DNA of 48,878 bases from a virus. Its lineage: Duplodnaviria > Caudoviricetes. The stretch covers positions 1-48,878 of the IMG/VR virus record IMGVR_UViG_3300037183_000039; one strand, 5' to 3'. The first letter of the stretch is position 1; the number at the start of each line of letters is the position of its first letter. Below are positions 1 through 48,878 of the stretch, piece by piece. Position numbers and translations under genes: made by a program. The notes beneath the pieces were generated by a model. It was not told where the DNA came from and ran no database searches. It worked only from the letters and a program-made list of their open reading frames with translations.

Positions 1-14
1 AGGTCATCTTGCCC

Positions 15-260
15 TCATTTCTCCAGCCGGAACGCCCGGCAGGCACAACCCCGTTCACGGCACCCGGTCGAGAGTTCGAGAGCGGGCATGAGGGTAACGA
101 CAGTGACTTTCCTGCCGTCGCGCTGCTTGAACCCATGCACCATCAGGGGTTTATGGGCCGGGAACTGGTGGTGCTGACAGTCGGCGCACTTAGGGCCGTT
201 GATCAGGTCCCTGGTCGCCGCCGTCGACCGTCCGTGTCTGAGTTGCTTGGTCCGGCTCAC
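15..260 (-). CDS. small Cys/His-containing hypothetical protein
   Basis: GTG start overlaps the polymerase stop (GTGA); CxxC and CxC motifs; in the circular form the C-terminus reads ...RLHKSEEK* and overlaps the ATG of the gene at 48751. Confidence 0.6.
   Translation of the reverse strand: MSRTKQLRHGRSTAATRDLINGPKCADCQHHQFPAHKPLMVHGFKQRDGRKVTVVTLMPALELSTGCRERGCACRAFRLEK
24..133. repeat. 110-bp terminal direct repeat, copy 1 (circularity overlap)
   Basis: cagccggaacgcccggcaggcac...cgctgcttgaacc is identical to 48769-48878; bases 1-23 do not match the sequence preceding the other copy. Confidence 0.95.
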
Positions 261-2683
261 GAGGCTTCCCCCCAACGTTTTGTTATTGAGACGTCGATTT
301 CGAGCTTCACCAGGAGCCACGGGCACCGGGCCATCATGAGAGTCGACATCTGATCAACGCAAATCTGGGCGGCAGCCTTCGCCTCGGCGGCCGGAGCGTC
401 CAGCAGGATCGAATCATGCACCGGGAGGACGAGCATGGTCTTCATTCCCAGCCGCCGGAGTTCCCGGTCGACATGAATCGTCGCCAGATTGTTGATATCG
501 GCGCCCTGGGAGGCGATCATGAAATTCGCCGCTTCCCGGTGAATGGCATCGATCTTCCACTCCACCCGGTCCCGCAGAAGATTCTTGATCTCTGGGAACC
601 GGCGGTGGAGGCCGAAGCGATTGACCATGAAGCCGTACTTGTCCACGGTCGCGTGTTGCTTCCTGATCCACTTGAATACGTTGGGGTAAGCCCGCTCGTA
701 GGAGGCCAGCATCGCCTCCGCTTCCTGCTCCGTCATCCCGAACTCGGCCGCCAGGGCGTAGGCGGTGACACCGTACACGATGGCAAAGTTGATGCGCTTG
801 GCAATGGAGTACAGGCGGTGGGTCTTCTCCTTGCCCAGGTACTTCTCCTTGAACATCAGCCGGGCCGTCAGTTCGTGGAGGTTCTGGCCGGTCGTGATGG
901 CCCCGATCAGCGTCTTGTCCTCGGATTCCGACGCCACCAGCCGGACCTCGAGCTGTTTGTAGTCGGCCGAGATCACGGACCCGCCGTCGAACCGGCTGAT
1001 GACCATGCCCCGGACGAGCGGATCCTCCGGCATAGCCTGAAATGGTGGCTTGGTGACCGACAACCGATCGGTGACCACGAAAGCGGAGTTCATGGAAGGC
1101 CGGACGATGCCGTGCTCGTCGGCGAACGTGGGGAACTTCTGGAGGAAGTTGTTCTTGAGGGTCTTCATTCCCTTCCATTCCAGGTAGTTCTTGACCACCA
1201 CCGACTTGTCGGCCAGCGTCTTGATGGACGCCTCGGCCACGGAGTTCTGGCCCGTGTCGGTCTTGACGTCCGTCTTAAACTTCATGATGTCGAAGAAGAG
1301 ACGCCGCATCTGGGTGTCCGAGTTGAAGTTGAGTTCCTTCTTCTCTGACTCCAACTTCTCGACCAGTTTCTTGACCGGCGGCTGGGCCATAAGCGCCGTG
1401 GCCAGCGTGTCCATCTTCTCCTGGTATTCAGCGTCGATCTTCTCACAGTACGGCACGTCGATCTTGATGCCGCGGACCTCCATCCTGGCCGTCATCTTGG
1501 CCATGGGGAGGGCTATCGTCTTGTAATGGTTCGCCATGAGCGGATTGTAGAGCTTCTTGAGTGGTTCGATCAGATGGGCTGTCTCCCAGGAGTCGATCCC
1601 GCCGTAGGCCCCGGCCCCTGGGAACGCCGGTACTGGGCCGTCGTCCCCGACATAGGAGGCGATCCGGTCGATGGGAACGGTCTCGTAGTCCCAGCCGCGC
1701 TCCTTCATGACCGGCCAGACGTCCCAGTCAGGAGTGCCGCGGAGCTGGGCGGCCACGTCGTTGAGGCGGTGGCTCGAGTTCTCGTCCACCTGCCGGTGCA
1801 TGACCATGGTATCGTAGTGGAGGTTGACCGGCTCGACGCCGTACTCGTCGATGGCCCACCGGGTCTCGAACGCGCAGTTATGGGCGCCCTTTGCGACCGG
1901 GCTTTCCAGGAACTCCTTTATGACCTCGTGGGCACGAATGCCCCACTTTTCCACGTTGAGCCAGATAGCTTGCTTCCCGTCTGACCAGCTCGACGTCCGA
2001 ATCCGGCCGCCCTCCGATTTGAATTTCCCAGTCGTTTCCAAGTCCCAGGTAACGGGCCCCTGGAACATCCGGAGTAACCCTCGGCACTCCTTCGGACCAA
2101 CCTCGAACACCGGAGGCCCTTTCGGCTTCGTTTCCGGCCTGAGGAGGTATCCAAGTTCCCGGCAGTGAGACTCGAAGGTGGCCTTGTTGCGTGGATACCG
2201 CAAAATGTAGGACGGGTGAAGGAGCGCAAAAACTGGGACACCCTGGGCCTCCCCCACAACTCGTCCACTCCAAGTGGAAATGCCGGTCTTCCCCACCAGA
2301 GCCTTGAGTGCTATGTTGCCCAGGGCCACTAGCATCTTCGGTTTTGCGGCGGCGATCTCGGCGTCCAGGTACGGTCGGCATGCGGCAAGCTCCTCTTTAT
2401 TAGGGTCCCGGTCCTTGTGCTTGTGGTCTTGTGGGAAACACTTCACCGCGTTGGTTACGTAGGCGGGTTGGAGCTTGTACAGCCGGATGGCCTGGGTGAG
2501 GAGCTGGCCCGCCGGTCCGATGAAGCACCGCCCGTCCCGGTCCTCGTCCTTGCCCGGCGCCTGCCCCACGAACATCAGGGCCGGAGCCGCCGTCGTGCCC
2601 CGGCCCGGAATGCAGACCCGGTTAGAAGTCTGGTGTAGGGGACATTTGGTGCACCCAGGATCGGACAACAGTTGAGTGGTCAT
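257..2683 (-). CDS. polA: family A DNA polymerase with N-terminal uracil-DNA glycosylase family 4-like domain and 3'-5' exonuclease (SPO1-type architecture)
   Basis: N-term CTKC...GQAPG..ED..G..F.G.AG, NAVKC, LHPSYILR (UDG4 Fe-S fold); exo I WDLETTG, exo II HN..FE; motif A ADYKQLEVR, motif B AKRINFAIVYG, motif C VHDS. Confidence 0.95.
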   Translation of the reverse strand: MTTQLLSDPGCTKCPLHQTSNRVCIPGRGTTAAPALMFVGQAPGKDEDRDGRCFIGPAGQLLTQAIRLYKLQPAYVTNAVKCFPQDHKHKDRDPNKEELAACRPYLDAEIAAAKPKMLVALGNIALKALVGKTGISTWSGRVVGEAQGVPVFALLHPSYILRYPRNKATFESHCRELGYLLRPETKPKGPPVFEVGPKECRGLLRMFQGPVTWDLETTGKFKSEGGRIRTSSWSDGKQAIWLNVEKWGIRAHEVIKEFLESPVAKGAHNCAFETRWAIDEYGVEPVNLHYDTMVMHRQVDENSSHRLNDVAAQLRGTPDWDVWPVMKERGWDYETVPIDRIASYVGDDGPVPAFPGAGAYGGIDSWETAHLIEPLKKLYNPLMANHYKTIALPMAKMTARMEVRGIKIDVPYCEKIDAEYQEKMDTLATALMAQPPVKKLVEKLESEKKELNFNSDTQMRRLFFDIMKFKTDVKTDTGQNSVAEASIKTLADKSVVVKNYLEWKGMKTLKNNFLQKFPTFADEHGIVRPSMNSAFVVTDRLSVTKPPFQAMPEDPLVRGMVISRFDGGSVISADYKQLEVRLVASESEDKTLIGAITTGQNLHELTARLMFKEKYLGKEKTHRLYSIAKRINFAIVYGVTAYALAAEFGMTEQEAEAMLASYERAYPNVFKWIRKQHATVDKYGFMVNRFGLHRRFPEIKNLLRDRVEWKIDAIHREAANFMIASQGADINNLATIHVDRELRRLGMKTMLVLPVHDSILLDAPAAEAKAAAQICVDQMSTLMMARCPWLLVKLEIDVSITKRWGEAS

Positions 2684-4608: not shown

Positions 4609-5150
4609 TGCGACTTTCTCCCGAATTCAAGTACCTGCATTCCCACGTATTCATGTAGGAGTTTGTCTTCCGGCCAGCCACCGTTCACGACCTCACAGGC
4701 CGAAGCGATGCCCAGATTGTCTACTAACATCTTGGCTATCTCACGCGCTTGTTCCCAGCTCTGTTCCCGGGTTTGGGGCGCCACCCGCATCGTGTCGCGG
4801 GAGAGGGTCTTCCGGCTGGAAGGGCCGACCACGACAGGGAACGGTGGGAACTTGGAGTGAAAGATTTGCTGGGTCCACTCCTCCGAGTACATACCGACGA
4901 CTTTCCCCATGCAGGTATCCAGGTCTTTGCCGGAGTGGACGACAATGTGCCAGAATTCCAGGACGCTCTTCTCCTGAGCCGAACCCGGTTTGATTTTGTG
5001 CCGGAAGAATCTCCTGCCGACGGCCTTCGAATATGCCCTCGCCACCATTTCGACTATGATCGGGGTTGTGTGGCTCAGATCTAACATTCGCTGCCACAAC
5101 GTCTGCCGGGTCGGAACAATTCTGCCGAATACGCGACCGAACGGTTCCAC
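4605..5150 (-). CDS. hypothetical protein (start uncertain)
   Basis: ORF coupled (ATGA) to the exonuclease; first gene of this run. Confidence 0.6.
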   Translation of the reverse strand: MEPFGRVFGRIVPTRQTLWQRMLDLSHTTPIIVEMVARAYSKAVGRRFFRHKIKPGSAQEKSVLEFWHIVVHSGKDLDTCMGKVVGMYSEEWTQQIFHSKFPPFPVVVGPSSRKTLSRDTMRVAPQTREQSWEQAREIAKMLVDNLGIASACEVVNGGWPEDKLLHEYVGMQVLEFGRKSQ

Positions 5151-5262
5151 GTTAGTTTATCTGGGGCGGGTCGGAACCCGCGTCGCTCCGGCGACCACAA
5201 CAACACCGCTAACAGGTGACAGCAGCCAACTCCAGAATGGAGAAGCTGCCAGTGGAGGAAAA

Positions 5263-5832
5263 GTGATCAAGGAAGGGGTTCTCATCCAGGAAAATTTCCT
5301 GTCGGCCACCCAGTGCAAAGTCCTGCGTGGCCTCTACAACGACTATCATACGAAAGTAAAAGGTCTGGACTACAACCGCCGACCGACCGTACACTATCTT
5401 GACATTCAATCACCTATTGATCAGATGAGAAAGTACAACTTCAGGTCGGCGGCGGAGAGAGCCGTCCAGAAGGCGGCCGACGTCTCCGGTATGAAACTCT
5501 TCCCAGAGGCAGTGTTTCTGGCTAAGATCGGAGTCGGCGAGAGGCACCCTCTCCACTGTGATAACGTAGAAGTGGGCCAGGACGGGAAGTGGAGGCCGAA
5601 TCACACTCCTCAGAGGGACTACTCGGCCCTGATCTACCTCAATTCAGACTTCTCGGGCGGTGAACTCCACCTACCGGGACGCTTCGAAATCAAGCCGGAG
5701 GAGGGTCTCCTGGTAGGGTTCCCTAGCACCCAGGACTTCCCGCATGAGGTCTACCCGGTCACCGATGGAGTGAGGTACTCACTGCCTGTCTGGATGACGA
5801 AGGACACCAGATTCAGGCTTCATCTCCTTTAG
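5263..5832 (+). CDS. 2OG-Fe(II) oxygenase, prolyl-4-hydroxylase-like
   Basis: ENFLS, HCD iron motif, SALIYLNSDFSGGEL, distal PHEV, RYSL; GTG start behind GGAGG; lone plus-strand gene in this part. Confidence 0.85.
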   Translation: MIKEGVLIQENFLSATQCKVLRGLYNDYHTKVKGLDYNRRPTVHYLDIQSPIDQMRKYNFRSAAERAVQKAADVSGMKLFPEAVFLAKIGVGERHPLHCDNVEVGQDGKWRPNHTPQRDYSALIYLNSDFSGGELHLPGRFEIKPEEGLLVGFPSTQDFPHEVYPVTDGVRYSLPVWMTKDTRFRLHLL

Positions 5833-6394: not shown

Positions 6395-6823
6395 CTAGTG
6401 GGTGGGGGTTTTATCGGAATAAGTCAGGATGGAATGCAAGATCTTACCGGCGGCGGCGATACCGGCAGAGACGAGGGCCAGCAACCCAAGGAATTTCTTG
6501 GGATTGTGGGCGGCCGAATTCCACTCGTGCTTCTTGATCTCTTCCTCACACTTGTGCGGGGTGCTGGCTTCGCCTATCTTCAGGTGGTTCACCGCGGAAC
6601 CTACACTCTTGAGACCTTCGACGAGCGATTTGTTCAGCATGTTCTGGTTTTCCGTGTACACGACCAGACGGGTGCTGACTTCGGTCAACTTCACGGTAGC
6701 CGCGTCCAGCTTTTCATTCTGATCTTTGACTTGTTCGTGAAGTGCCTCGGCCACCTGGATCTTGCCGGACATCTGGTCCACGCGGTCCCGGAGACGGCTG
6801 AACTCCCGCTCTTCTGTCGTCAT
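6395..6823 (-). CDS. coiled-coil protein with C-terminal TM helix (holin/XhlA-like candidate)
   Basis: N-terminal heptads, KKFLGLLALVSAGIAAAGKIL TM segment, end of the late operon. Confidence 0.5.
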   Translation of the reverse strand: MTTEEREFSRLRDRVDQMSGKIQVAEALHEQVKDQNEKLDAATVKLTEVSTRLVVYTENQNMLNKSLVEGLKSVGSAVNHLKIGEASTPHKCEEEIKKHEWNSAAHNPKKFLGLLALVSAGIAAAGKILHSILTYSDKTPTH

Positions 6824-7602
6824 GTGGGCGCCCTCTTCGTATAGATCTTGGTCATAGCTTGAACGCGTCCGGTCCTGGGGGAGATGAAAGCGTGAGCCTT
6901 CATTTCACACCCGTAGGACACTACGATCCGGTCTACGTGAGCGGCGCACAGACGCTCGTTGAGCTGGGCCGAAGACAGGTTGTTCTCCGAGCCGTCGAAG
7001 GCCCGTTCCCTGATCCAGCGCGTAGCAACGACCTTCTGGCCGGACTGTACCGGGAGACCGGTATGCATCGTCCGATGGTCGATGCCACCGTCCTGCATGG
7101 TGTTGTCCCACATGAGGGCGGCGCCAACTTCCGGCTTCACTTTGATCTTGAGCTTGGTGAACTCCGTCTCACCACCGGAAGTCGGCGCTTTCAGGTACAC
7201 CATGACGGTACGGATACGCTGGCCGCCCTGGGCCAGATGTTTCCCGGCCGATGGGAGGCCCGGGTCGAACCAGTCGTGGTGGGGCTTGTACTTCTGCCAA
7301 CGCTTGTAGCCGATGATCTGGATGGGCTCCCCCTGCTCCACTCTGGTCCTGGAGACCTGGGAGATGCGACGTTCGAGGGCGTCTACGAGCGAGTCCTCCG
7401 CTCCACGGAGCATGGTGAGGAACCCGGTCCGGTAGTCGGACTCTATGGACGAGCCGGTAGCATTGTCTACCACCGTAGAATTGACCTGCCTGCCTTCCGA
7501 AATATGGAGCAAATGGTCGCACTCTTCGGGAGACATGAAACTACGGAGCAGGACCACCCGGGGGGAGTCGCTGAGCTGGACGACTAGTTCCTGTGGTTTC
7601 AC
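6820..7602 (-). CDS. prolyl 4-hydroxylase (2OG-Fe(II) oxygenase)
   Basis: PRVVLLRSFMSPEECDHL, S.YRT, GEPIQI..Y...QKYKPHHDWF, GGQRIRTVMVYL, GGETEF, H.GLPV..G.K.VATRW; GTG start overlaps the upstream stop. Confidence 0.9.
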   Translation of the reverse strand: MKPQELVVQLSDSPRVVLLRSFMSPEECDHLLHISEGRQVNSTVVDNATGSSIESDYRTGFLTMLRGAEDSLVDALERRISQVSRTRVEQGEPIQIIGYKRWQKYKPHHDWFDPGLPSAGKHLAQGGQRIRTVMVYLKAPTSGGETEFTKLKIKVKPEVGAALMWDNTMQDGGIDHRTMHTGLPVQSGQKVVATRWIRERAFDGSENNLSSAQLNERLCAAHVDRIVVSYGCEMKAHAFISPRTGRVQAMTKIYTKRAPT

Positions 7603-7826
7603 GTGGCCTGGACTCCCCAGGAGGTCTTGATCAGACCCTCCCCGTCGATTCCGGCTACCGTGGCGATGGCGCAGTTGTGCTTGTTCAGGACGGCTAGGAT
7701 CTCGTCGTGACACTCCCGGGCCCGGCGGTCCAAGTCGAACTTCGCCGCTGCCTCGAGTTCCGCCGGGGTACGGGTGACCTGGGCTGGAGTAGACTTCGCT
7801 TTGGACTCTTTCATTTTCGGGGCCAT
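7599..7826 (-). CDS. hypothetical protein
   Basis: strong SD GGAGGAGG, coupled to P4H. Confidence 0.65.
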   Translation of the reverse strand: MAPKMKESKAKSTPAQVTRTPAELEAAAKFDLDRRARECHDEILAVLNKHNCAIATVAGIDGEGLIKTSWGVQAT

Positions 7827-7837
7827 AATTCCTCCTC

Positions 7838-8353
7838 CTAAGTCGCGTTCTCGGGGAGAGGCGGAACACTGTCCTTGCCGAGGAGTTTCATCTTGGTCTC
7901 GGGCTTCTCTTCCTCGAACGGGACGCCCTCCAGTTCCTTGGACTCGTCCAGATCCGCATTCTCTGGTAGGATGGCTGCCTTACGGACCAGACGACCGAAT
8001 TCCTCACCGATGGAATCGGCCGCGCTGAAGAGGTCCTGTCGCTCACGGAACCCGGTGGGCTCCCCGGTCATGTGATCCTTGACCGCGCCCTGGACGATTG
8101 CCAATTTCACGCCGGATAGGGCTTCGAACGAGAGCTTGAGATCCACCTTCTCAGAAGGCTTCTCGATGTTGTCGATGCCGATGCTGCCACCGACATTGAT
8201 TCGGACTGCGGCGTGGGGCTCCAACTCCCGGTCGGCCGCCAGGAGCCAGTTCTCCTGGGTGCGGTTGCCGCTCTTGGCGACCTGGACTTTCAGCCAGATG
8301 ACTCGGACGTGCAACCGGGCTACGGACACCGGGAACTTCCTGGGGTTTGCCAT
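7838..8353 (-). CDS. hypothetical protein
   Basis: strong SD GGAGGAGG, in late-operon orientation. Confidence 0.7.
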   Translation of the reverse strand: MANPRKFPVSVARLHVRVIWLKVQVAKSGNRTQENWLLAADRELEPHAAVRINVGGSIGIDNIEKPSEKVDLKLSFEALSGVKLAIVQGAVKDHMTGEPTGFRERQDLFSAADSIGEEFGRLVRKAAILPENADLDESKELEGVPFEEEKPETKMKLLGKDSVPPLPENAT

Positions 8354-39307: not shown

Positions 39308-39844
39308 GTGGACTTTCACAAGGCTTTGGCGCAGCTCGACCAGTTCGTACGTGGGGTCTGCAGAGCATCAAGCAAGTGTCCCGGCACTCAGGACGACCTG
39401 TACCAGGAGGCGATGATCTGCCTCATCGACCTCACCCAGCGCTACGCGGATAAGCCCGTGGACGAGTTCATGCTCCTGGCCCGGACTTCCATCAGGAACC
39501 GCCTGACCTCGATGGCCCGCAAGCGTCAGGTCTACTCCAGGACCCTGGACAGGATCGAGCCCCAGGAGTCGGTGGAGCCCCAGCAGTTCCAGGAGGCCCT
39601 GGCCCGGGAGGTCTTCTCCTACGTGGAGGCCCGGCTCACCGATCGGGAGCGGACGGTCCTGGCCCTGACCAAGAAGGGAATCCCACCCCACCACATCGCC
39701 AAGATCACGGGTCGTGGCAAGGTCGGCGTCTTCAAGTCCTTGCGCATCATCAGGGAGGAGATTGCCACCTACCACGGCCGGAGTGAGGACCTGGACACCT
39801 GGATCAGCCGCCAACTGGCCACGATCCGGGCCCTGTTCTACTGA
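39308..39844 (+). CDS. RNA polymerase sigma factor (ECF/SigH-like)
   Basis: region 2 QDDLYQEAMI.L...Y...F...AR..IRN; region 4 LTDRERTVL...G.....IA...G. Confidence 0.85.
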   Translation: MDFHKALAQLDQFVRGVCRASSKCPGTQDDLYQEAMICLIDLTQRYADKPVDEFMLLARTSIRNRLTSMARKRQVYSRTLDRIEPQESVEPQQFQEALAREVFSYVEARLTDRERTVLALTKKGIPPHHIAKITGRGKVGVFKSLRIIREEIATYHGRSEDLDTWISRQLATIRALFY

Positions 39845-42868: not shown

Positions 42869-44134
42869 TTAAACCTCATCAGAAAGGGCCGTGATCCGGC
42901 TCGTCTCCCAATCCACCGAGCAGTCGACGCCGAATTCCGATTCCCCAATCCGGGAACCCATGACGTACAGCGACAGTTCGGCGCGGCGGGCCGGGTCGTG
43001 ATTGACCGACACCGCCAGCTCGACGATGCCCGTGATCTCGAAACACTCCGACATGTGGTCCATATAGAGGACCTTGGCATTCACTCCGGGCCGGTTCGCT
43101 TGGTGGGCCGTCCAGATCGGGACGCCGCACTCGCCGGAGATCCGGCCGAGTTGTTCATAAATGTCCATAAGCTGGAGGCGCTTCTCGTCCTTCGGGTTGG
43201 TAGGACGCATGAGGGCGGCGTAGTCCAGGATGACGACGTCCACCTTACCGGCTCCCTCGATGCAGGTCTCCAACATGGGAGGAGTCAGGGTCTTCTTCGG
43301 GAACCATTTGATCTGGAGCTTGGACTTGAGCTTGGCCTGGAGTTCACCCATGACGCGGGTGAACCGGTTCGGGACCTTGGCGAGGACCTTCTGTCCACGG
43401 CCGTAGAACCGGGCGTCGTACATCTGGGCGACTTCGTCGAGCCGGTTCTCTAGAGAAACGTGGAGGACGGAACGTCCGGTAAGGACGGCGTGAGCCGCAA
43501 CGGTCCGGAGAGCCGTCGACTTGCCGTGCTTGGGGAGTCCCATGAAGCAACCAACTTGCCCCGCCCCGAGCCCGCCCCCACAAGCCTGATCGAGAGGGCC
43601 CAGCCCTGTTGGAATCTTGAGAGTTCCGTCCGATCCATCGAGACCTGCATATCGACGAGCACGTGCCCCGGCTCCAGCGAAGAAGTCGTAATAGATCGAA
43701 GATCCAGTTGAACCGACTTTTTGGGCACGGTCGATGATCGGCCGGACCTTGTCGAGTTCGCCCGCTTCCGCCGCCGCGTGGGCTTCGGAGACGGCCTGGA
43801 GGAGCGCGGCGCGTTTACCAAACTCTACCGCCCTTTCCTTATAATGTTCCGTGTTCGTACCACGAAGCTTATAGACGGTCCGAGCTTCCTTCTCGTACTC
43901 AGCGAACTGGCGACCGTCGGCGACAACTGCTTTGAGTTCCTCCAGACAGACCGGAAGATCGATAGACCCGGCGGGGAGACCGGAATCTTGAAACACCGCG
44001 AGAATGGTTCCCAGGATCTCGTCGGTGAAGAACTCGGGCCGGAGGACGTCCGCGTTCGCCCTCGCCCACTTCTGGTCTTCCCAGGCGGCGGCGAGGATAC
44101 GACGTTGGAACGGGATCTCGAATTCGTAGGACAC
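42869..44134 (-). CDS. dnaB: replicative DNA helicase, DnaB/SF4
   Basis: IPTG...LD...GG, GLPKHGKST, VSLE, ILDYA, IWTAHQANR. Confidence 0.9.
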   Translation of the reverse strand: MSYEFEIPFQRRILAAAWEDQKWARANADVLRPEFFTDEILGTILAVFQDSGLPAGSIDLPVCLEELKAVVADGRQFAEYEKEARTVYKLRGTNTEHYKERAVEFGKRAALLQAVSEAHAAAEAGELDKVRPIIDRAQKVGSTGSSIYYDFFAGAGARARRYAGLDGSDGTLKIPTGLGPLDQACGGGLGAGQVGCFMGLPKHGKSTALRTVAAHAVLTGRSVLHVSLENRLDEVAQMYDARFYGRGQKVLAKVPNRFTRVMGELQAKLKSKLQIKWFPKKTLTPPMLETCIEGAGKVDVVILDYAALMRPTNPKDEKRLQLMDIYEQLGRISGECGVPIWTAHQANRPGVNAKVLYMDHMSECFEITGIVELAVSVNHDPARRAELSLYVMGSRIGESEFGVDCSVDWETSRITALSDEV

Positions 44135-44140
44135 TTTTTC

Positions 44141-44581
44141 TTAGTCCTGGTCACGGAGCAACAGTTTAAGGTGAAGAATCAACTCCGGAAGTGACTCGGA
44201 CATTTTACGACGATCGATCATGACATGCGCTGGAGCCAGGAACCGAGCCCAAGCGGCGTACGGTTCACCTTTGAAGAAGACGCCAACCATAGACCGACCA
44301 AGTGACCTCCTGATAGCCATTTCGGACCCCAGGCCAGTAGACGGATCGGTAGCCACACATACCATGAGTTTGCAGTTAGCCACGCAGAGCTGGTTGGCTG
44401 AACAGACGAGGTCGAACTCGGTGTCCGGCTTCGCCCACTCCGCCGGGTCGTCAACCGAGATGCCGACACTACGGAGCCCCAGCAGGAGGCGGTTGGTGAG
44501 TTCCACTGTCGCACGGCTGGCCTTGAACATCGGGTGGGCGAGGTATACTTCCGAGAAGGTCCGCTCCGATAGCCCGGTCAT
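44141..44581 (-). CDS. nucleoside 2-deoxyribosyltransferase / DNPH1-like N-glycosidase
   Basis: VYLAHPMF, V.DP, PSTGLGSEMAI...GR; ATG behind GGAG. Confidence 0.65.
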   Translation of the reverse strand: MTGLSERTFSEVYLAHPMFKASRATVELTNRLLLGLRSVGISVDDPAEWAKPDTEFDLVCSANQLCVANCKLMVCVATDPSTGLGSEMAIRRSLGRSMVGVFFKGEPYAAWARFLAPAHVMIDRRKMSESLPELILHLKLLLRDQD

Positions 44582-45101
44582 CGTTACTCCGGAATCCTTC
44601 GATTTGCCTTTTGAAGTTGAGCGCACGTTTTTCATAAACGATCTCCGCGAATTCCTTCCCTGTCATCCCCGCCACGACTGCCGCCGTAACAACGAAGTGG
44701 AATAGGTCGACAATTTCCACCCTAGTGTTCTGGATGTCTGTCTTGGTACCGGGCTTCCACCACTTCCAGGCCAGGGACTCCTTGAACTCACGGAGTTCGT
44801 CCTCCATGGCCTTGCCAAAACGGTGAAGCCACACCGTGGGCAGGTCGTTGGGGCCGATCTTCCCTTGCCTAGCCATCTCGCCCACCTGCTGGAGGTTAGG
44901 AGAGATCTCGTTCTTCTTGAATATGAAATCCGACAGCGACAGGATGTCGTCGAACATCTTGCCAAAACCCTCTGACACGATCATGGGAGGGTGCTGCTGG
45001 ACCTTCGCTGACGGTTCCTTGCCCTGGAGAAGCAAGAACATGTTCTCCTCAGGGAACGGGTCCAGTACCCCGGCGTCGATGGGCGGTTCTTCGTCCTTCA
45101 C
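44469..45101 (-). CDS. dimeric dUTPase-family (all-alpha) dNTP pyrophosphatase
   Basis: E.E..E...WKWWK, EIVDLFHF, Y.K...N..RQ..G. Confidence 0.85.
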   Translation of the reverse strand: MKDEEPPIDAGVLDPFPEENMFLLLQGKEPSAKVQQHPPMIVSEGFGKMFDDILSLSDFIFKKNEISPNLQQVGEMARQGKIGPNDLPTVWLHRFGKAMEDELREFKESLAWKWWKPGTKTDIQNTRVEIVDLFHFVVTAAVVAGMTGKEFAEIVYEKRALNFKRQIEGFRSNDDRAIGADLLGSIPRPPDVQGQPCDSGTHQPPPAGAP

Positions 45102-45556
45102 CGAGCCACCCTCTTCTCGATGCGGATCACTTCCGGCTCTTCGATCGGTGCGGGTCCGGTGTCGAACTGGGACAGGAGTTCGTTGATCACACGCTGGCCA
45201 TCCGACCGCTTGATGGCTTCGAACGGATCACCAGCCCGGCCGACGACTGGCGGCGGCATGGTACGGACGGCGACGGTGTACGGCTGTTCCCACATCTTGC
45301 GACGATCAACATAATACCGGAACCGTTCCATTCCCTCGTACCGCACCCGCTCTTCGTAAGCCTGGGAATAGTTGCGGTCCGGACCACGTCGAGACCTATA
45401 CTCTCTGTCGTAGATCACACAGGCTGTGTCCATGTCGACGCCGTGTTCCATCATGATAGATTTCACAATGAATTTAACTTCCTCGGCCTCTTGACGCGAG
45501 TAGACGACCGGGCAAGGACAGCATGGACAGTTATCAGGGTGGCCACAAATCTTCAT
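45098..45556 (-). CDS. hypothetical protein, Cys-rich N-terminus
   Basis: coupled to both neighbours; CGH..NCPCCPC. Confidence 0.6.
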   Translation of the reverse strand: MKICGHPDNCPCCPCPVVYSRQEAEEVKFIVKSIMMEHGVDMDTACVIYDREYRSRRGPDRNYSQAYEERVRYEGMERFRYYVDRRKMWEQPYTVAVRTMPPPVVGRAGDPFEAIKRSDGQRVINELLSQFDTGPAPIEEPEVIRIEKRVAR

Positions 45557-46131
45557 TTCTGAATCCCGTTTACGATTTCCAAGTGGACGTCGGCGACCGT
45601 GGGCAGCCACCGGAGCAGGGGCTCGAGCGTGGAGGCTTCGTCCTGGAAGCGCTTCTCGGCCACCAGAGCGTCCCACTTATCGGACCGGGCCTTGACCCTG
45701 GCCCGCCGGACTTCCAGGTCGGCCTTCACCACCACGATGGCGACCCGGTAGCCATACTGTTGGGCCTTGCCGGTCAGCCACATGAACTGGGCCCGGGACC
45801 TGGGGAATCCATCAATGACGACGGACTTGAGCCTGGACCCGGCCTTGATGGCCTGCAGGATATGGGCCCGGACGAGGTCCTCCGTCGACTCCGGCGCCAG
45901 CTTCCCAAGGTCCGGGAGATCGTGGCCGGACATCGTCGCTCGGACGAACTTACCCGGAAACACTACCGAGTAAGGAGCGATACGGGCCATGTTGTCGATC
46001 AGAGTTGTCTTGCCCGAGCCCGTACCGCCCGTAACTCCTATGAGGAACCCCTCCCTGGGCAGGACCCCGGCGATGGCACGAGCCCAGTAGTCGGATTCGA
46101 CCGTGACCGGATCGATGTCTGTCGGTTTCAT
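45553..46131 (-). CDS. adenylate-kinase-like (d)NMP kinase
   Basis: P-loop GGTGSGKTT, DGFPRS..Q, R.R...R.D lid; ATGA-coupled to purZ. Confidence 0.85.
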   Translation of the reverse strand: MKPTDIDPVTVESDYWARAIAGVLPREGFLIGVTGGTGSGKTTLIDNMARIAPYSVVFPGKFVRATMSGHDLPDLGKLAPESTEDLVRAHILQAIKAGSRLKSVVIDGFPRSRAQFMWLTGKAQQYGYRVAIVVVKADLEVRRARVKARSDKWDALVAEKRFQDEASTLEPLLRWLPTVADVHLEIVNGIQK

Positions 46132-47282
46132 GCGAGTTCAATCATATCAGAGACCTTCGGCCCCGTCCCGACGTGGGACAGGAGCGGCTTGGGGATGAAC
46201 GGGATCGTACCGTCGTCCATCAGTCCCTCCACGTAACGGACGAACTGCCGGGAAGGTTCCGTCAGCTCCGACAGCGACCGCTTGCCGCCGTCCTCCGCCC
46301 GGACGTGGTTGATGAAGTTGAGGAAGACATGAGTCGGGGCGCATACCCGGAGGGCCTTCTTGAACTGGGTCTCGGAGAAGGTGAACACGCGCCGGATCTT
46401 GTTGGTCACCGTGGTCCGCTCCACCAGCGAGAGCTTGGAGTCCGACATCCGCTCCAGGTCCTCCCATTTGATCTCCGACTGGTCCGCGTAGAAGGGACCG
46501 GAGTCGCCGACCTTGACCATGACGTCGTCCTTGCCGTACATGCCCTTGGGGTCCTGGACAATTCCTGGTCCCTTCTCCATCTGGTGGCCGACCCGGATCG
46601 GGAAGGCCCTGATGCACCCATAGACGTCCCCGATGAGCTGGGGCGGCACCCCGGCATCATTGAGGATCTGGGACGGAGTCACGTCACGGGAAGTGCAGTA
46701 GGGCCACAGGTGGCCGTGGTTGATGGACAGGTCGAATCCCTGGGCCCCCTCGGCGAGGCACAGCGCCCCACCCGCCAGGAAGGTCCGTAGGTAGGCGGTC
46801 GTGTCGCCGATCCACTCCTTCAGCTCCCGGCAGTCCTTGGCCAGAACTGTCAACGTGGCACCCGGGGTGCGCATCATCTTTCCAACCATAGAAGCTGCGG
46901 TCCCCTGCTGGGTGGAGGAGATGTGCTTCAACGACTCCCTCTCCTTGGTCTTGTGGATTTCCAGGACCACTGCCGCGTGAGGGTGAATCATGAGCCGCTT
47001 CTGGGCCTTGTGGGTCTCGACCTCCTCCAGGAGTCGGTAGATATCGATGACCGAGCCCGGGTTGAGAAGGAGGCGGGTGTCCGGGTCCAGGGCCGCGACC
47101 GGAAGCATCTTGAACACGTGCTTCTTGCCGTCGTCCAGGACCGCTGTGTGTCCGGCGTTGGGGCCGAAGTTAGTTGTGGCCGCCGCGATCTCGTGCTTGT
47201 CCGACAGCCAGTGGACCATCTTCCCCTTGGCCTCGGAACCCCACTGGAGTCCCATCACTACGTTCAGCGCGTACCGTCTCAT
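46128..47282 (-). CDS. purZ: PurZ-type adenylosuccinate synthetase paralogue (2-amino-dAMP-succinate synthetase candidate)
   Basis: QWGSEAKGK (Ser for PurA Asp13), GPNAGHT, EGAQG, PYCTSR, RAFPIRV, ERTTVT..IRRVF, FLNFIN, GTGP; short archaeal-type length. Confidence 0.88.
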   Translation of the reverse strand: MRRYALNVVMGLQWGSEAKGKMVHWLSDKHEIAAATTNFGPNAGHTAVLDDGKKHVFKMLPVAALDPDTRLLLNPGSVIDIYRLLEEVETHKAQKRLMIHPHAAVVLEIHKTKERESLKHISSTQQGTAASMVGKMMRTPGATLTVLAKDCRELKEWIGDTTAYLRTFLAGGALCLAEGAQGFDLSINHGHLWPYCTSRDVTPSQILNDAGVPPQLIGDVYGCIRAFPIRVGHQMEKGPGIVQDPKGMYGKDDVMVKVGDSGPFYADQSEIKWEDLERMSDSKLSLVERTTVTNKIRRVFTFSETQFKKALRVCAPTHVFLNFINHVRAEDGGKRSLSELTEPSRQFVRYVEGLMDDGTIPFIPKPLLSHVGTGPKVSDMIELA

Positions 47283-47585: not shown

Positions 47586-48515
47586 CTATTTCTTCTTCGT
47601 CACCGCGCCCTTCACAGGCGGCTTGGCGACGGTCTTCTTGGGCGGCGGGGCGGGTTCCTCCTCCGTCTCGAGGTCGACGTTCTCCTCCTCGGCGGGGACG
47701 TCCTCGGCCGACTCGGACTCCTCGGCGGGAGTCTCCTCTTCCTCGGCGGGGGTCTCCTCAGCCGTCTCCTCGACGGCTTCCTCGGTGACCTCCTCCTCAG
47801 CCGTCTCCTCGACGGCTTCCTCCTCGGAGGCGGCTTCGGCGCCGGGCGCGGGCAGGATTCCCAGCTCCAGGAAGCCCTCGGGCGTGTAGAAGTCCTTGAC
47901 CTCGGCGAGGATCGTCGGCGGGATGGGCTTGCAGTTCGCCGCATCCCGGACCTGGACCTTGTACATGTCCGAGCCCTTCGCCTTGGAGTTGAACGAGATG
48001 ACGAAGTCCCGAGCCTTGCATCCCAGGAGCTTCTCCCCGCCGGGGCCGTAGTCGGTGTCGGCGAGGCAGCCCAGCATGGAGTTGTAGACGCTCTTGGGGA
48101 GCATCACGTGGCGCATCTTGAAGCCCTTGGTCACCGGGTCGCGCTCCTCGGTGTCCACGATGTTGACCGCGTACTTGGTCTGGGGTGCCATGTCCTTCCC
48201 GCGCTTCTGGTCCTGTTCGGCCTTGGAGGCCAGGAGCCGGGCCGACTGCTTCACCAGCTCCGGCGAGGTCATGCACGGGCGGTTGTCCTTGGCGACCCCG
48301 AAGTGGATCGTGACCGGGCGGTCGGCCTCCTCCACCACCTTACCCAGCTTCTCCTTCGGGAAGTAGCCGTTCTTCACGTCGTCCGGCGTGACCTTGTGCT
48401 TGAATGAGAAGAGCCGGATCCGATTGGGCTTCCCATCCTTGAACTTGAAGCGATCCCCCGACGACTTGGAGGACTCTTCCTTCCTCTGCTCGATGCGCGA
48501 AATGTCCAGACCCAC
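47586..48515 (-). CDS. single-stranded DNA-binding protein (gp32-like) with long acidic tail
   Basis: FKFKDG.NRIR, Y.VNIVD, DF.I....G...YKV; Glu-rich EETAEEE repeats; SD AAGGAG + GTG. Confidence 0.7.
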   Translation of the reverse strand: MGLDISRIEQRKEESSKSSGDRFKFKDGKPNRIRLFSFKHKVTPDDVKNGYFPKEKLGKVVEEADRPVTIHFGVAKDNRPCMTSPELVKQSARLLASKAEQDQKRGKDMAPQTKYAVNIVDTEERDPVTKGFKMRHVMLPKSVYNSMLGCLADTDYGPGGEKLLGCKARDFVISFNSKAKGSDMYKVQVRDAANCKPIPPTILAEVKDFYTPEGFLELGILPAPGAEAASEEEAVEETAEEEVTEEAVEETAEETPAEEEETPAEESESAEDVPAEEENVDLETEEEPAPPPKKTVAKPPVKGAVTKKK

Positions 48516-48768: not shown

Positions 48769-48878
48769 CAGCCGGAACGCCCGGCAGGCACAACCCCGTT
48801 CACGGCACCCGGTCGAGAGTTCGAGAGCGGGCATGAGGGTAACGACAGTGACTTTCCTGCCGTCGCGCTGCTTGAACC
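48769..48878. repeat. 110-bp terminal direct repeat, copy 2
   Basis: identical to 24-133. Confidence 0.95.

What the first reader, a model, noticed from the sequence alone, without database searches (positions are those of the whole stretch)
490..1075. PolA has lost several near-invariant minor-groove and dNTP-contact residues
By-eye alignment to E. coli Pol I. TGRLSS..PNLQNIP becomes TDRLSVTKPPFQAMP (G667D, N675P, N678A; R668 kept). RRSAKAINFGLIYG becomes YSIAKRINFAIVYG (R754Y; K758, F762, Y766 kept). AINAPMQGTAAD becomes AANFMIASQGAD (Q849A, with a Gln two residues later). Established: R668 and Q849 read the minor groove at the primer terminus, and R754 contacts the dNTP. Z carries an extra 2-amino group in the minor groove. 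Inference: this may be a polymerase adapted to Z or another modified base, from a lineage different from described DpoZ enzymes.
Basis: partly seen in the sequence, partly recalled or inferred. Interest (0 to 1): 0.8.

Follow-up and report, generated by a model that had tools for sequence, protein, structure and literature searches.

The report
Z-phage polymerase outside known DpoZ lineages
This peat phage encodes genes for making the alternative DNA base Z next to a DNA polymerase outside both known Z-polymerase families; the polymerase likely copies Z-DNA, most of its odd active-site residues also occur in relatives without the Z genes, and only two rare losses (Q849A, R754Y) remain untested candidates for favouring Z.

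Summary
All five substitutions are real, and a run from a second study shows the same letters. The gene is an 808-aa UDG + 3'-5' exo + PolA. On the circular map it lies about 1.7 kb upstream of an ATP-type purZ cluster. It belongs to an uncultured clade of 36 distinct proteins, separate from both DpoZ families.

The substitutions are not one Z signature. N675P and N678X are clade-wide and occur in a complete syntenic relative without purZ (G001). G667D plus N678A occur in purZ-less phage Crosby. A purZ-bearing relative and five DpoZ-family enzymes keep G667 and Q849. R754Y is private. Q849A (5 proteins) occurs only with purZ where status is known (3 of 3, two indirect), but three purZ-bearing members keep Q849.

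Making room for the 2-amino group is unlikely, because G:C pairs already carry one. Q849A and R754A are published antimutator changes, so a looser grip favouring three-bond Z:T pairs is a testable idea. Verdict: likely a third PolA lineage copying Z-DNA; Z-selectivity unshown.

The parts
257..2683 (-). UDG(family 4)-3'-5' exo-PolA DNA polymerase, 808 aa (P0001); the only DNA polymerase found among 60 ORFs scanned
   Evidence: AF2 pLDDT 88.8, PolA fold, Z 37.7 (rmsd 2.4, 566 aligned) to Bst fragment
1067..1069 (-). D539 (= G667D); D in 1 of 37 clade rows, also in purZ-less Crosby
1034..1045 (-). P547 and A550 (= N675P, N678A); clade-wide background, P in 32 of 37 rows
809..811 (-). Y625 (= R754Y), private to this protein; follows an insertion before helix O
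512..514 (-). A724 (= Q849A), shared with P0003-P0006 only within the clade
410..964 (-). Catalytic and core residues retained: D574, E579, K629, Y637, N720, H756, D757; E883S in 29 of 37 clade rows
1592..2044 (-). Proofreading exonuclease motifs with D214, E216, Y360, D364 intact
47586..48506 (-). Single-strand DNA-binding protein, between pol and purZ on the circular map
46128..47282 (-). PurZ-like enzyme with S16, I229, T290, F323, N325 (= phiVC8 S14, I234, T262, F295, N297); ATP-type
45553..46131 (-). Nucleoside-monophosphate-kinase-like P-loop protein; also after purZ in L003
44469..45101 (-). dUTPase_2-like (dimeric family) pyrophosphatase, candidate dATP/dGTP hydrolase (inferred); 42% to L003 counterpart
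44141..44635 (-). NDT-fold protein, candidate DmtZ-like dAMP hydrolase (inferred); no Pfam hit by HMM
42869..44134 (-). DnaB-like helicase closing the cluster
24..133 (.). 110-bp terminal repeat, identical to 48769-48878: the record is circular, so pol is upstream of SSB-purZ

Best explanation
The gene encodes a UDG-fused family A polymerase with intact catalytic and proofreading residues, 1.7 kb upstream of a purZ cluster on a circular phage genome, and it likely copies Z-containing DNA as a third PolA lineage whose Z content is probably set mainly by the nucleotide pool. PurZ and the kinase would make dZTP, and the Dut-like and NDT-fold proteins would drain dATP and dAMP (inferred). The listed substitutions form three layers. 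N675P and N678X are old clade background that works without purZ. Q849A marks one subgroup. G667D and R754Y belong to a private remodelling of the palm and fingers. By analogy with Klenow and Pol gamma mutants, Q849A and R754Y likely loosen the grip on the primer end and dNTP and shift the enzyme towards proofreading. They are not needed to fit the 2-amino group.
For: PurZ has S14, I234, T262, F295 and N297 equivalents. The order pol-SSB-purZ-kinase-Dut-like-NDT-DnaB is repeated in L003. The clade is separate from both DpoZ groups (99.8/100), and the DpoZ models score 64 of 500 and 52 of 350 bits.

purZ-less G001 has N675P and N678T. Crosby has G667D and N678A and no PF00709 match.

Q849A is an antimutator in Pol I, and the Pol gamma equivalent Q1102A raises exonuclease and lowers polymerase activity (PMC4773887). 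Q849A and R754A lower T:G misinsertion (PMC10520511). S-2L reaches full Z substitution without a selective polymerase (PMC10201439).

Weak genome signal: G001 strongly avoids 21 of 64 six-base palindromes, the window only 3.
Against: Z in this DNA was not measured. PurZ scores 242 bits, under the NCBIfam cut-off of 300. No DatZ (HD_3) was found, and the substrates of the Dut-like and NDT-fold proteins are guessed. Within one subgroup Q849A does follow purZ, which pure background would not predict. Private changes concentrate in palm and fingers (15 of 71 against 2 of 77), which fits adaptation or decay better than even drift. The palindrome value of the window (0.80) is ordinary: 57% of 61 viral loci reach it.
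Confidence: 0.5

Rival explanations
1. The enzyme is a convergent Z-selective polymerase. Loss of Q849, then R754 and neighbours, weakens the hold on the nascent pair, so two-bond A:T ends fray into the exonuclease while three-bond Z:T ends are extended.
For: Close relatives L002 (purZ absent) and P0008 (no purZ match) have Q849. With the five motif columns removed the Q849A label needs 2 changes, consistent with a reversion in the purZ-less branch or two gains (p-AU 0.046). The exonuclease motifs are intact. The pol-to-exo switch is the published proposal for phiVC8 DpoZ (PMC8599892). Private changes are enriched in palm and fingers, p=3.5e-4, lowest of 37 rows.
Against: The correlation rests on one or two evolutionary events. 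Polymerase-domain trees make Q849A one group (86; 95/98 for the three included), so a reversion is not established. Exonuclease-dead phiVC8 DpoZ keeps its Z preference. The enrichment test is biased because the protein was picked for these changes.
Confidence: 0.2
2. One reading: the residues were lost to make room for, or directly read, the 2-amino group of Z in the minor groove (for example through D539 beside R540).
For: R668 and Q849 contact the minor groove of the terminal pair (PMC3347538); purZ is present.
Against: G:C pairs already carry the 2-amino group (established chemistry). Removing it from G had little effect on T7 polymerase or Dpo4 (PMC3377560). Q5 polymerase made PCR products with 98.6% dZ. 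Q849A did not affect substrate identification in Klenow. G667D occurs in purZ-less Crosby.
Confidence: 0.08
3. The polymerase site is under relaxed selection or is decaying. The protein serves mainly as an exonuclease/UDG editing module while host polymerases copy the genome.
For: 15 private departures at conserved palm and finger columns against 2 elsewhere. The R754 arginine is described as non-mutable in Taq Pol I (PMC8599892). The Pol gamma Q-to-A mutant fails long rolling-circle synthesis.
Against: All catalytic residues are kept. The phage has its own helicase, primase and SSB and no other polymerase was found. The frame is intact and identical in a second study. Four other proteins share Q849A. 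R623, R630 or the insertion may stand in for R754, as an insertion hides the arginine in phiVC8 DpoZ.
Confidence: 0.1
4. The genome is canonical or only partly Z, or carries another modification; the purZ cassette is incidental to the polymerase.
For: purZ is patchy in the clade. PurZ is below the family cut-off and DatZ is absent. Other UDG-PolAs occur in phages with modified uracil.
Against: Diagnostic PurZ residues are intact and the cassette is conserved in L003. No pyrimidine-modifying family was hit among 60 ORFs scanned.
Confidence: 0.12

Closest known systems
DpoZ, phiVC8-like (NF038380; PDB 7PBK)
   Same: Family A phage polymerase with active-type 3'-5' exonuclease, near an ATP-type purZ; serine at E883.
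   Different: No UDG domain; keeps Q849 and G667; has Y766F, F762L and three insertions; cluster uses DatZ and MazZ. The query scores 64 of 500 bits and falls in another clade.
DpoZ, Wayne-like (NF038381; Ghobes, Preamble)
   Same: N678A; Arg after K758; cluster with a dUTPase-like and an NDT gene instead of DatZ (PMC12884076).
   Different: Uses PurZ0 (D at position 297; the query has N), a Dut homologous to E. coli trimeric Dut rather than dUTPase_2, has Y766F, keeps R754 and Q849. Score 52 of 350 bits. A sister grouping vanished when Crosby, Hiyaa and D29 were added.
SPO1-type UDG-PolA (Bacillus phages SPO1, SP-10)
   Same: Same three-domain layout; best cultured hits, 25-28% identity.
   Different: Linked to modified uracil, not purZ (SPO1L1 has no PF00709 match); keeps G667, N675, R754 and Q849.
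Klenow Q849A / R754A and Pol gamma Q1102A laboratory mutants
   Same: Same positions; Q-to-A is identical.
   Different: Engineered alleles with reduced polymerase activity; here the change is natural and fixed, with unknown compensations.
Cyanophage S-2L Z system
   Same: Model for pool-driven Z incorporation with a non-selective polymerase.
   Different: Uses PrimPol and DatZ; the window has PolA and no HD_3 match.

Membership tests
Family A DNA polymerase | Motifs A, B, C with catalytic D705, K758, D882 and PolA fold | tested here: met
UDG-PolA fusion | [quoted passage not shown] | tested here: met
   PF03167 E 3.6e-32
UDG-PolA fusion | Catalytically active UDG domain | not testable with these tools
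   GQAPG and HPSY motifs present; the canonical Glu at the Gln position is recalled, not from a call
DpoZ (either clade) | Score above NCBIfam DpoZ cut-off | tested here: not met
   64.1 of 500 and 52.3 of 350 bits
DpoZ (either clade) | Tyr-to-Phe at Y766, the one change shared by both clades | tested here: not met
   Y637; Y in 36 of 36 ungapped clade rows
DpoZ (either clade) | Groups with a DpoZ clade in a tree | tested here: not met
   separate clade 99.8/100; a quick tree with fewer neighbours joined it to Wayne-like at 91 on a long branch
DpoZ (functional sense) | purZ in the same genome | tested here: met
DpoZ (functional sense) | dZTP preferred over dATP | not testable with these tools
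   needs kinetics
PurZ | Ser at PurA D13, plus I234, T262, F295, N297 | tested here: met
PurZ | Score above NF038379 cut-off | tested here: not met
   242.4 of 300 bits, though the best of 6 families
DmtZ / NDT | NDT fold and catalytic Tyr/Glu | tested here: inconclusive
   Atlas NDT-like clusters 0.93-0.94, TM 0.74-0.80; no PF05014 match in the window, weak match in the L003 counterpart; residues not aligned to DmtZ
phiVC8/S-2L Z cluster | DatZ (HD_3) | tested here: not met
   0 of 3 records

The most novel reading that the evidence does not exclude
A third, independently evolved Z-selective polymerase lineage (UDG-fused) that gains selectivity by naturally fixing the classic antimutator change Q849A and, in this phage, discarding the near-invariant helix O arginine. 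Its purZ-less close relatives carry Gln, giving a natural residue-level switch for Z-over-A selection.
Probability: 0.2. Interest if true: 0.8.

Novelty: new variant of a known kind. Interest (0 to 1): 0.5.

Why it matters
How DpoZ enzymes prefer Z over A is unresolved: no single residue explains it in phiVC8 (PMC8599892). This clade offers syntenic genomes with and without purZ, and polymerases with and without Q849, so the proposed grip-versus-proofreading mechanism can be tested with few constructs. A working PolA without R754 would also revise what counts as essential in motif B. The cassette (ATP-type PurZ, kinase, dUTPase_2-like, NDT-fold, no DatZ) is a combination not seen in the papers read. 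If the enzyme proves non-selective, the result is an ordinary divergent phage PolA in a new Z-phage group.

Tried and rejected
Searches that gave no clade members: single-protein scans of viral contigs with the polymerase and PurZ; the metagenome scan, whose patterns fell in the UDG domain, so no locus over the full protein above background; the genome contigs pattern, 2 loci with no match to window genes; a motif-A pattern that returned 120 loci of other PolAs at 22-38%; 20 of 22 loci from the motif-6 pattern, the other two being the known L002/L003 records. No cultured phage has a near-full-length match above 28% among the 40 listed of 4848 records. Context was therefore read directly for only 2 relatives.

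Rejected: assembly error; a shifted Gln replacing Q849; kinship with Wayne-like DpoZ; the purA-like gene beside a PolA in L076, which is canonical PurA with GDEGKG.

Inconclusive: the AF2 model gives a continuous helix 620-634 with Y625 four residues before K629, but pLDDT is 68-80 over 611-630 and side-chain positions were not available. Palindrome avoidance is only a hint, since host differences could explain it and PvuII and SacI sites were untested on dZ. Nine clade contigs of 14-51 kb had no PurZ of equal contig length among the 120 listed of 7524; this is weak and only two (P0008, P0014) have DnaB on a contig of equal length. Three look-ups of earlier scan findings returned nothing.

Full report
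**Observation.** The stretch lies in ORF 257-2683 (-), an 808-aa protein with UDG, 3'-5' exonuclease and PolA domains. Alignment to E. coli PolA from NC_000913.3 confirms G667D (D539), N675P (P547), N678A (A550), R754Y (Y625) and Q849A (A724). R668, D705, E710, K758, F762, Y766, N845, H881 and D882 are kept. A contig from a second peat study covers 254-1284 with no differences. Q849 and R754 are near-invariant elsewhere: 236 of 236 and 236 of 237 ungapped rows in one set, 130 and 132 of 133 in another. G667, N675 and especially N678 vary more.

**Genome context.** The record is a phage genome with terminase, portal, capsid, primase and DnaB hits. A 110-bp terminal repeat and a loose contig end make it circular. 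The order is then pol, small ORF, SSB, purZ, kinase, unknown ORF, dUTPase_2-like, NDT-fold, DnaB. PurZ has the phiVC8 residues S14, I234, T262, F295 and N297, so it is the ATP type rather than PurZ0. It scores 242 bits on NF038379, below the cut-off of 300 but above every PurA model. No HD_3/DatZ was found. The 44141-44635 product looks NDT-like by features and structure but not by HMM. NDT (DmtZ) and Dut enzymes drain dATP and dAMP in Wayne-like Z phages (PMC12884076, Results read). The same roles here are inferred.

**The clade.** Protein searches gave 21 relatives at 37-52%, then a drop to 28% or less. The profile search added 13 more; with L002 and L003 the alignment has 37 rows, 36 distinct. 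No near-full-length match above 28% appears among the 40 cultured records listed. One unnamed predicted structure, A0A1B1IWN2, is 41% identical. The clade is separate from both DpoZ groups (99.8/100), scores far below both DpoZ models and lacks their shared Y766F. An earlier quick tree joined it to Wayne-like DpoZ at 91 on a long branch; adding Crosby, Hiyaa and D29 removed that join.

**Do the changes follow purZ?** Mostly not. Of 37 rows, 32 have N675P, 30 have lost N678, 32 keep G667, 36 keep R754, and 30 of 35 ungapped keep Q849. G001 is a 50,214-bp syntenic relative rated 100% complete. It has no purZ anywhere in the record and only GroES and a short stretch between SSB and DnaB. Its polymerase has N675P and N678T. 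L003 has the full purZ cassette and keeps G667, N675, R754 and Q849. Crosby, a complete cultured genome without a PF00709 match, has G667D and N678A. All five DpoZ-family sequences aligned keep G667, R668 and Q849. Caveat: G001 retains a dATP/dGTP diphosphohydrolase and an NDT gene, and Crosby groups with Wayne-like DpoZ. Both may be secondary losers of purZ, which would still show that these residues work without it.

**Q849A is the exception.** It occurs in the query and P0003-P0006. P0003 and P0004 have PurZ hits on contigs of identical length (16,242 and 15,884), which is indirect evidence. So Q849A is with purZ in 3 of 3 known cases. Their close relatives L002, P0007 and P0008 have Q849; L002 lacks purZ directly and P0008 has no purZ match. 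But P0015 and P0273 (indirect) and L003 (direct) carry purZ with Q849. Trees disagree. Polymerase-domain trees make the Q849A proteins one group. A full-length tree without the five motif columns needs two changes (0% of 200 bootstrap trees with one; p-AU 0.046), which fits a reversion in the purZ-less branch or two gains. One or two events carry no statistical weight. An out-of-clade protein, P0277, also has Q849A; its context is unknown.

**Private remodelling.** The query departs from clade-conserved columns at 15 of 71 palm/finger positions and 2 of 77 elsewhere (Fisher p=3.5e-4, lowest of 37 rows, but it was picked for this). An insertion precedes helix O. The model keeps helix O continuous with Y625 at the R754 position, with moderate confidence there. 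In phiVC8 DpoZ an insertion hides a structurally conserved arginine, so R623 or R630 may compensate here.

**Mechanism.** Shown: residues, domain layout, gene order, clade and distribution. Inferred: Z-DNA, enzyme roles and any selectivity. Making room for the 2-amino group is unlikely. G:C pairs already present it (established chemistry), its removal from G barely affects T7 polymerase (PMC3377560 passages), Q5 makes 98.6% dZ products (PMC12944874 section 3.1), and Klenow Q849A did not alter substrate identification (PMC3347538 passage). What the positions are known to do is shift the balance towards proofreading. Q849A is an antimutator, and Pol gamma Q1102A has more exonuclease and less polymerase activity (PMC4773887 section and passages). 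Q849A and R754A reduce T:G misinsertion (PMC10520511 passages). The pol-to-exo switch is the proposed basis of DpoZ selectivity, although exonuclease-dead DpoZ stays selective (PMC8599892 parts 2-4 of 6). I put pool-driven Z replication with mostly background substitutions at 0.5, and selectivity through loosened grip at 0.2.

**Indirect sign of Z-DNA.** A/T-containing six-base palindromes are at 0.80 of expectation in the window and 0.43 in G001; partial loci of four Z phages give 0.69-0.87. G001 strongly avoids 21 of 64 sites, the window 3. Several sites avoided only by G001 (BamHI, PstI, PvuI, NruI, BspEI) are resistant when dZ-modified (supplement Table S1 passages). Against: 57% of 61 background viral loci reach 0.80, GC-only sites are also less avoided in the window (0.70 against 0.54), and hosts may differ.

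**Novelty.** Z genomes, PurZ, DpoZ and UDG-PolA fusions are known. A preprint reports the UDG domain enriched in dZ-resistant contigs without explaining it (10.1101/2025.10.22.683976, parts 1-4 of 5); this clade may account for that. PMC10201439 (passages) links UDG-PolA to modified uracil, not Z. Searches listed no paper describing a UDG-PolA beside purZ. The library lacks most subscription papers, including the 2021 Science reports (recalled). The preprint's supplements and the supplementary genome tables of PMC12884076 were not seen and could list members.

**Verdict.** Observation confirmed; interpretation partly supported. New variant of a known kind, interest 0.5.

Noticed in passing
window 44141-47282: Z cassette of unusual make-up: ATP-type PurZ, kinase, dUTPase_2-like and NDT-fold genes, no DatZ; repeated in L003 11250-13701.
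   Followed up: partly
L002 14000-14919: The purZ-less relative keeps a dATP/dGTP diphosphohydrolase (PF18909) and an NDT gene after DnaB, possibly relics of a lost Z system; GroES sits where purZ lies in relatives.
   Followed up: partly
L314 5995-8007: Streptomyces phage Crosby polymerase groups with Wayne-like DpoZ and has Y766F and G667D but its genome has no purZ: a cultured control for DpoZ selectivity.
   Followed up: partly
window 1613-1660 (approx., residues 342-357 of P0001): A 16-residue insertion before the ExoIII motif, absent from the 21 other rows of A1 and of low pLDDT.
   Followed up: no
window 4990-5832 (+) and 6820-7869 (-): Two 2OG-Fe(II) oxygenase genes (PF13640) on opposite strands near the tail region; no evidence that they act on DNA.
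   Followed up: no
window 1-48878: GCCGGC (0 against 40 expected), CAGCTG (0 against 11.5) and GAGCTC (1 against 17.5) are nearly absent, hinting at host restriction sites.
   Followed up: partly
window 1-23: The first 23 bases lie outside the terminal repeat and run X1 departs from the window before position 17: probably an assembly end artefact.
   Followed up: partly
window 39308-39844 (+): Phage-encoded sigma-70/ECF-like factor on the opposite strand.
   Followed up: no
P0143-P0182: Dozens of related PurZ proteins with Ser14 lie on 30-57 kb contigs with no matching clade polymerase, so further polymerase types probably accompany this PurZ group.
   Followed up: no
P0277 and P0299: Independent Q849A and Q849S changes in UDG-PolAs outside the clade; genomic context unknown.
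   Followed up: no
L002 16179-16799: Poly-G-rich stretch downstream of the primase, possibly a sequencing artefact in G001.
   Followed up: no
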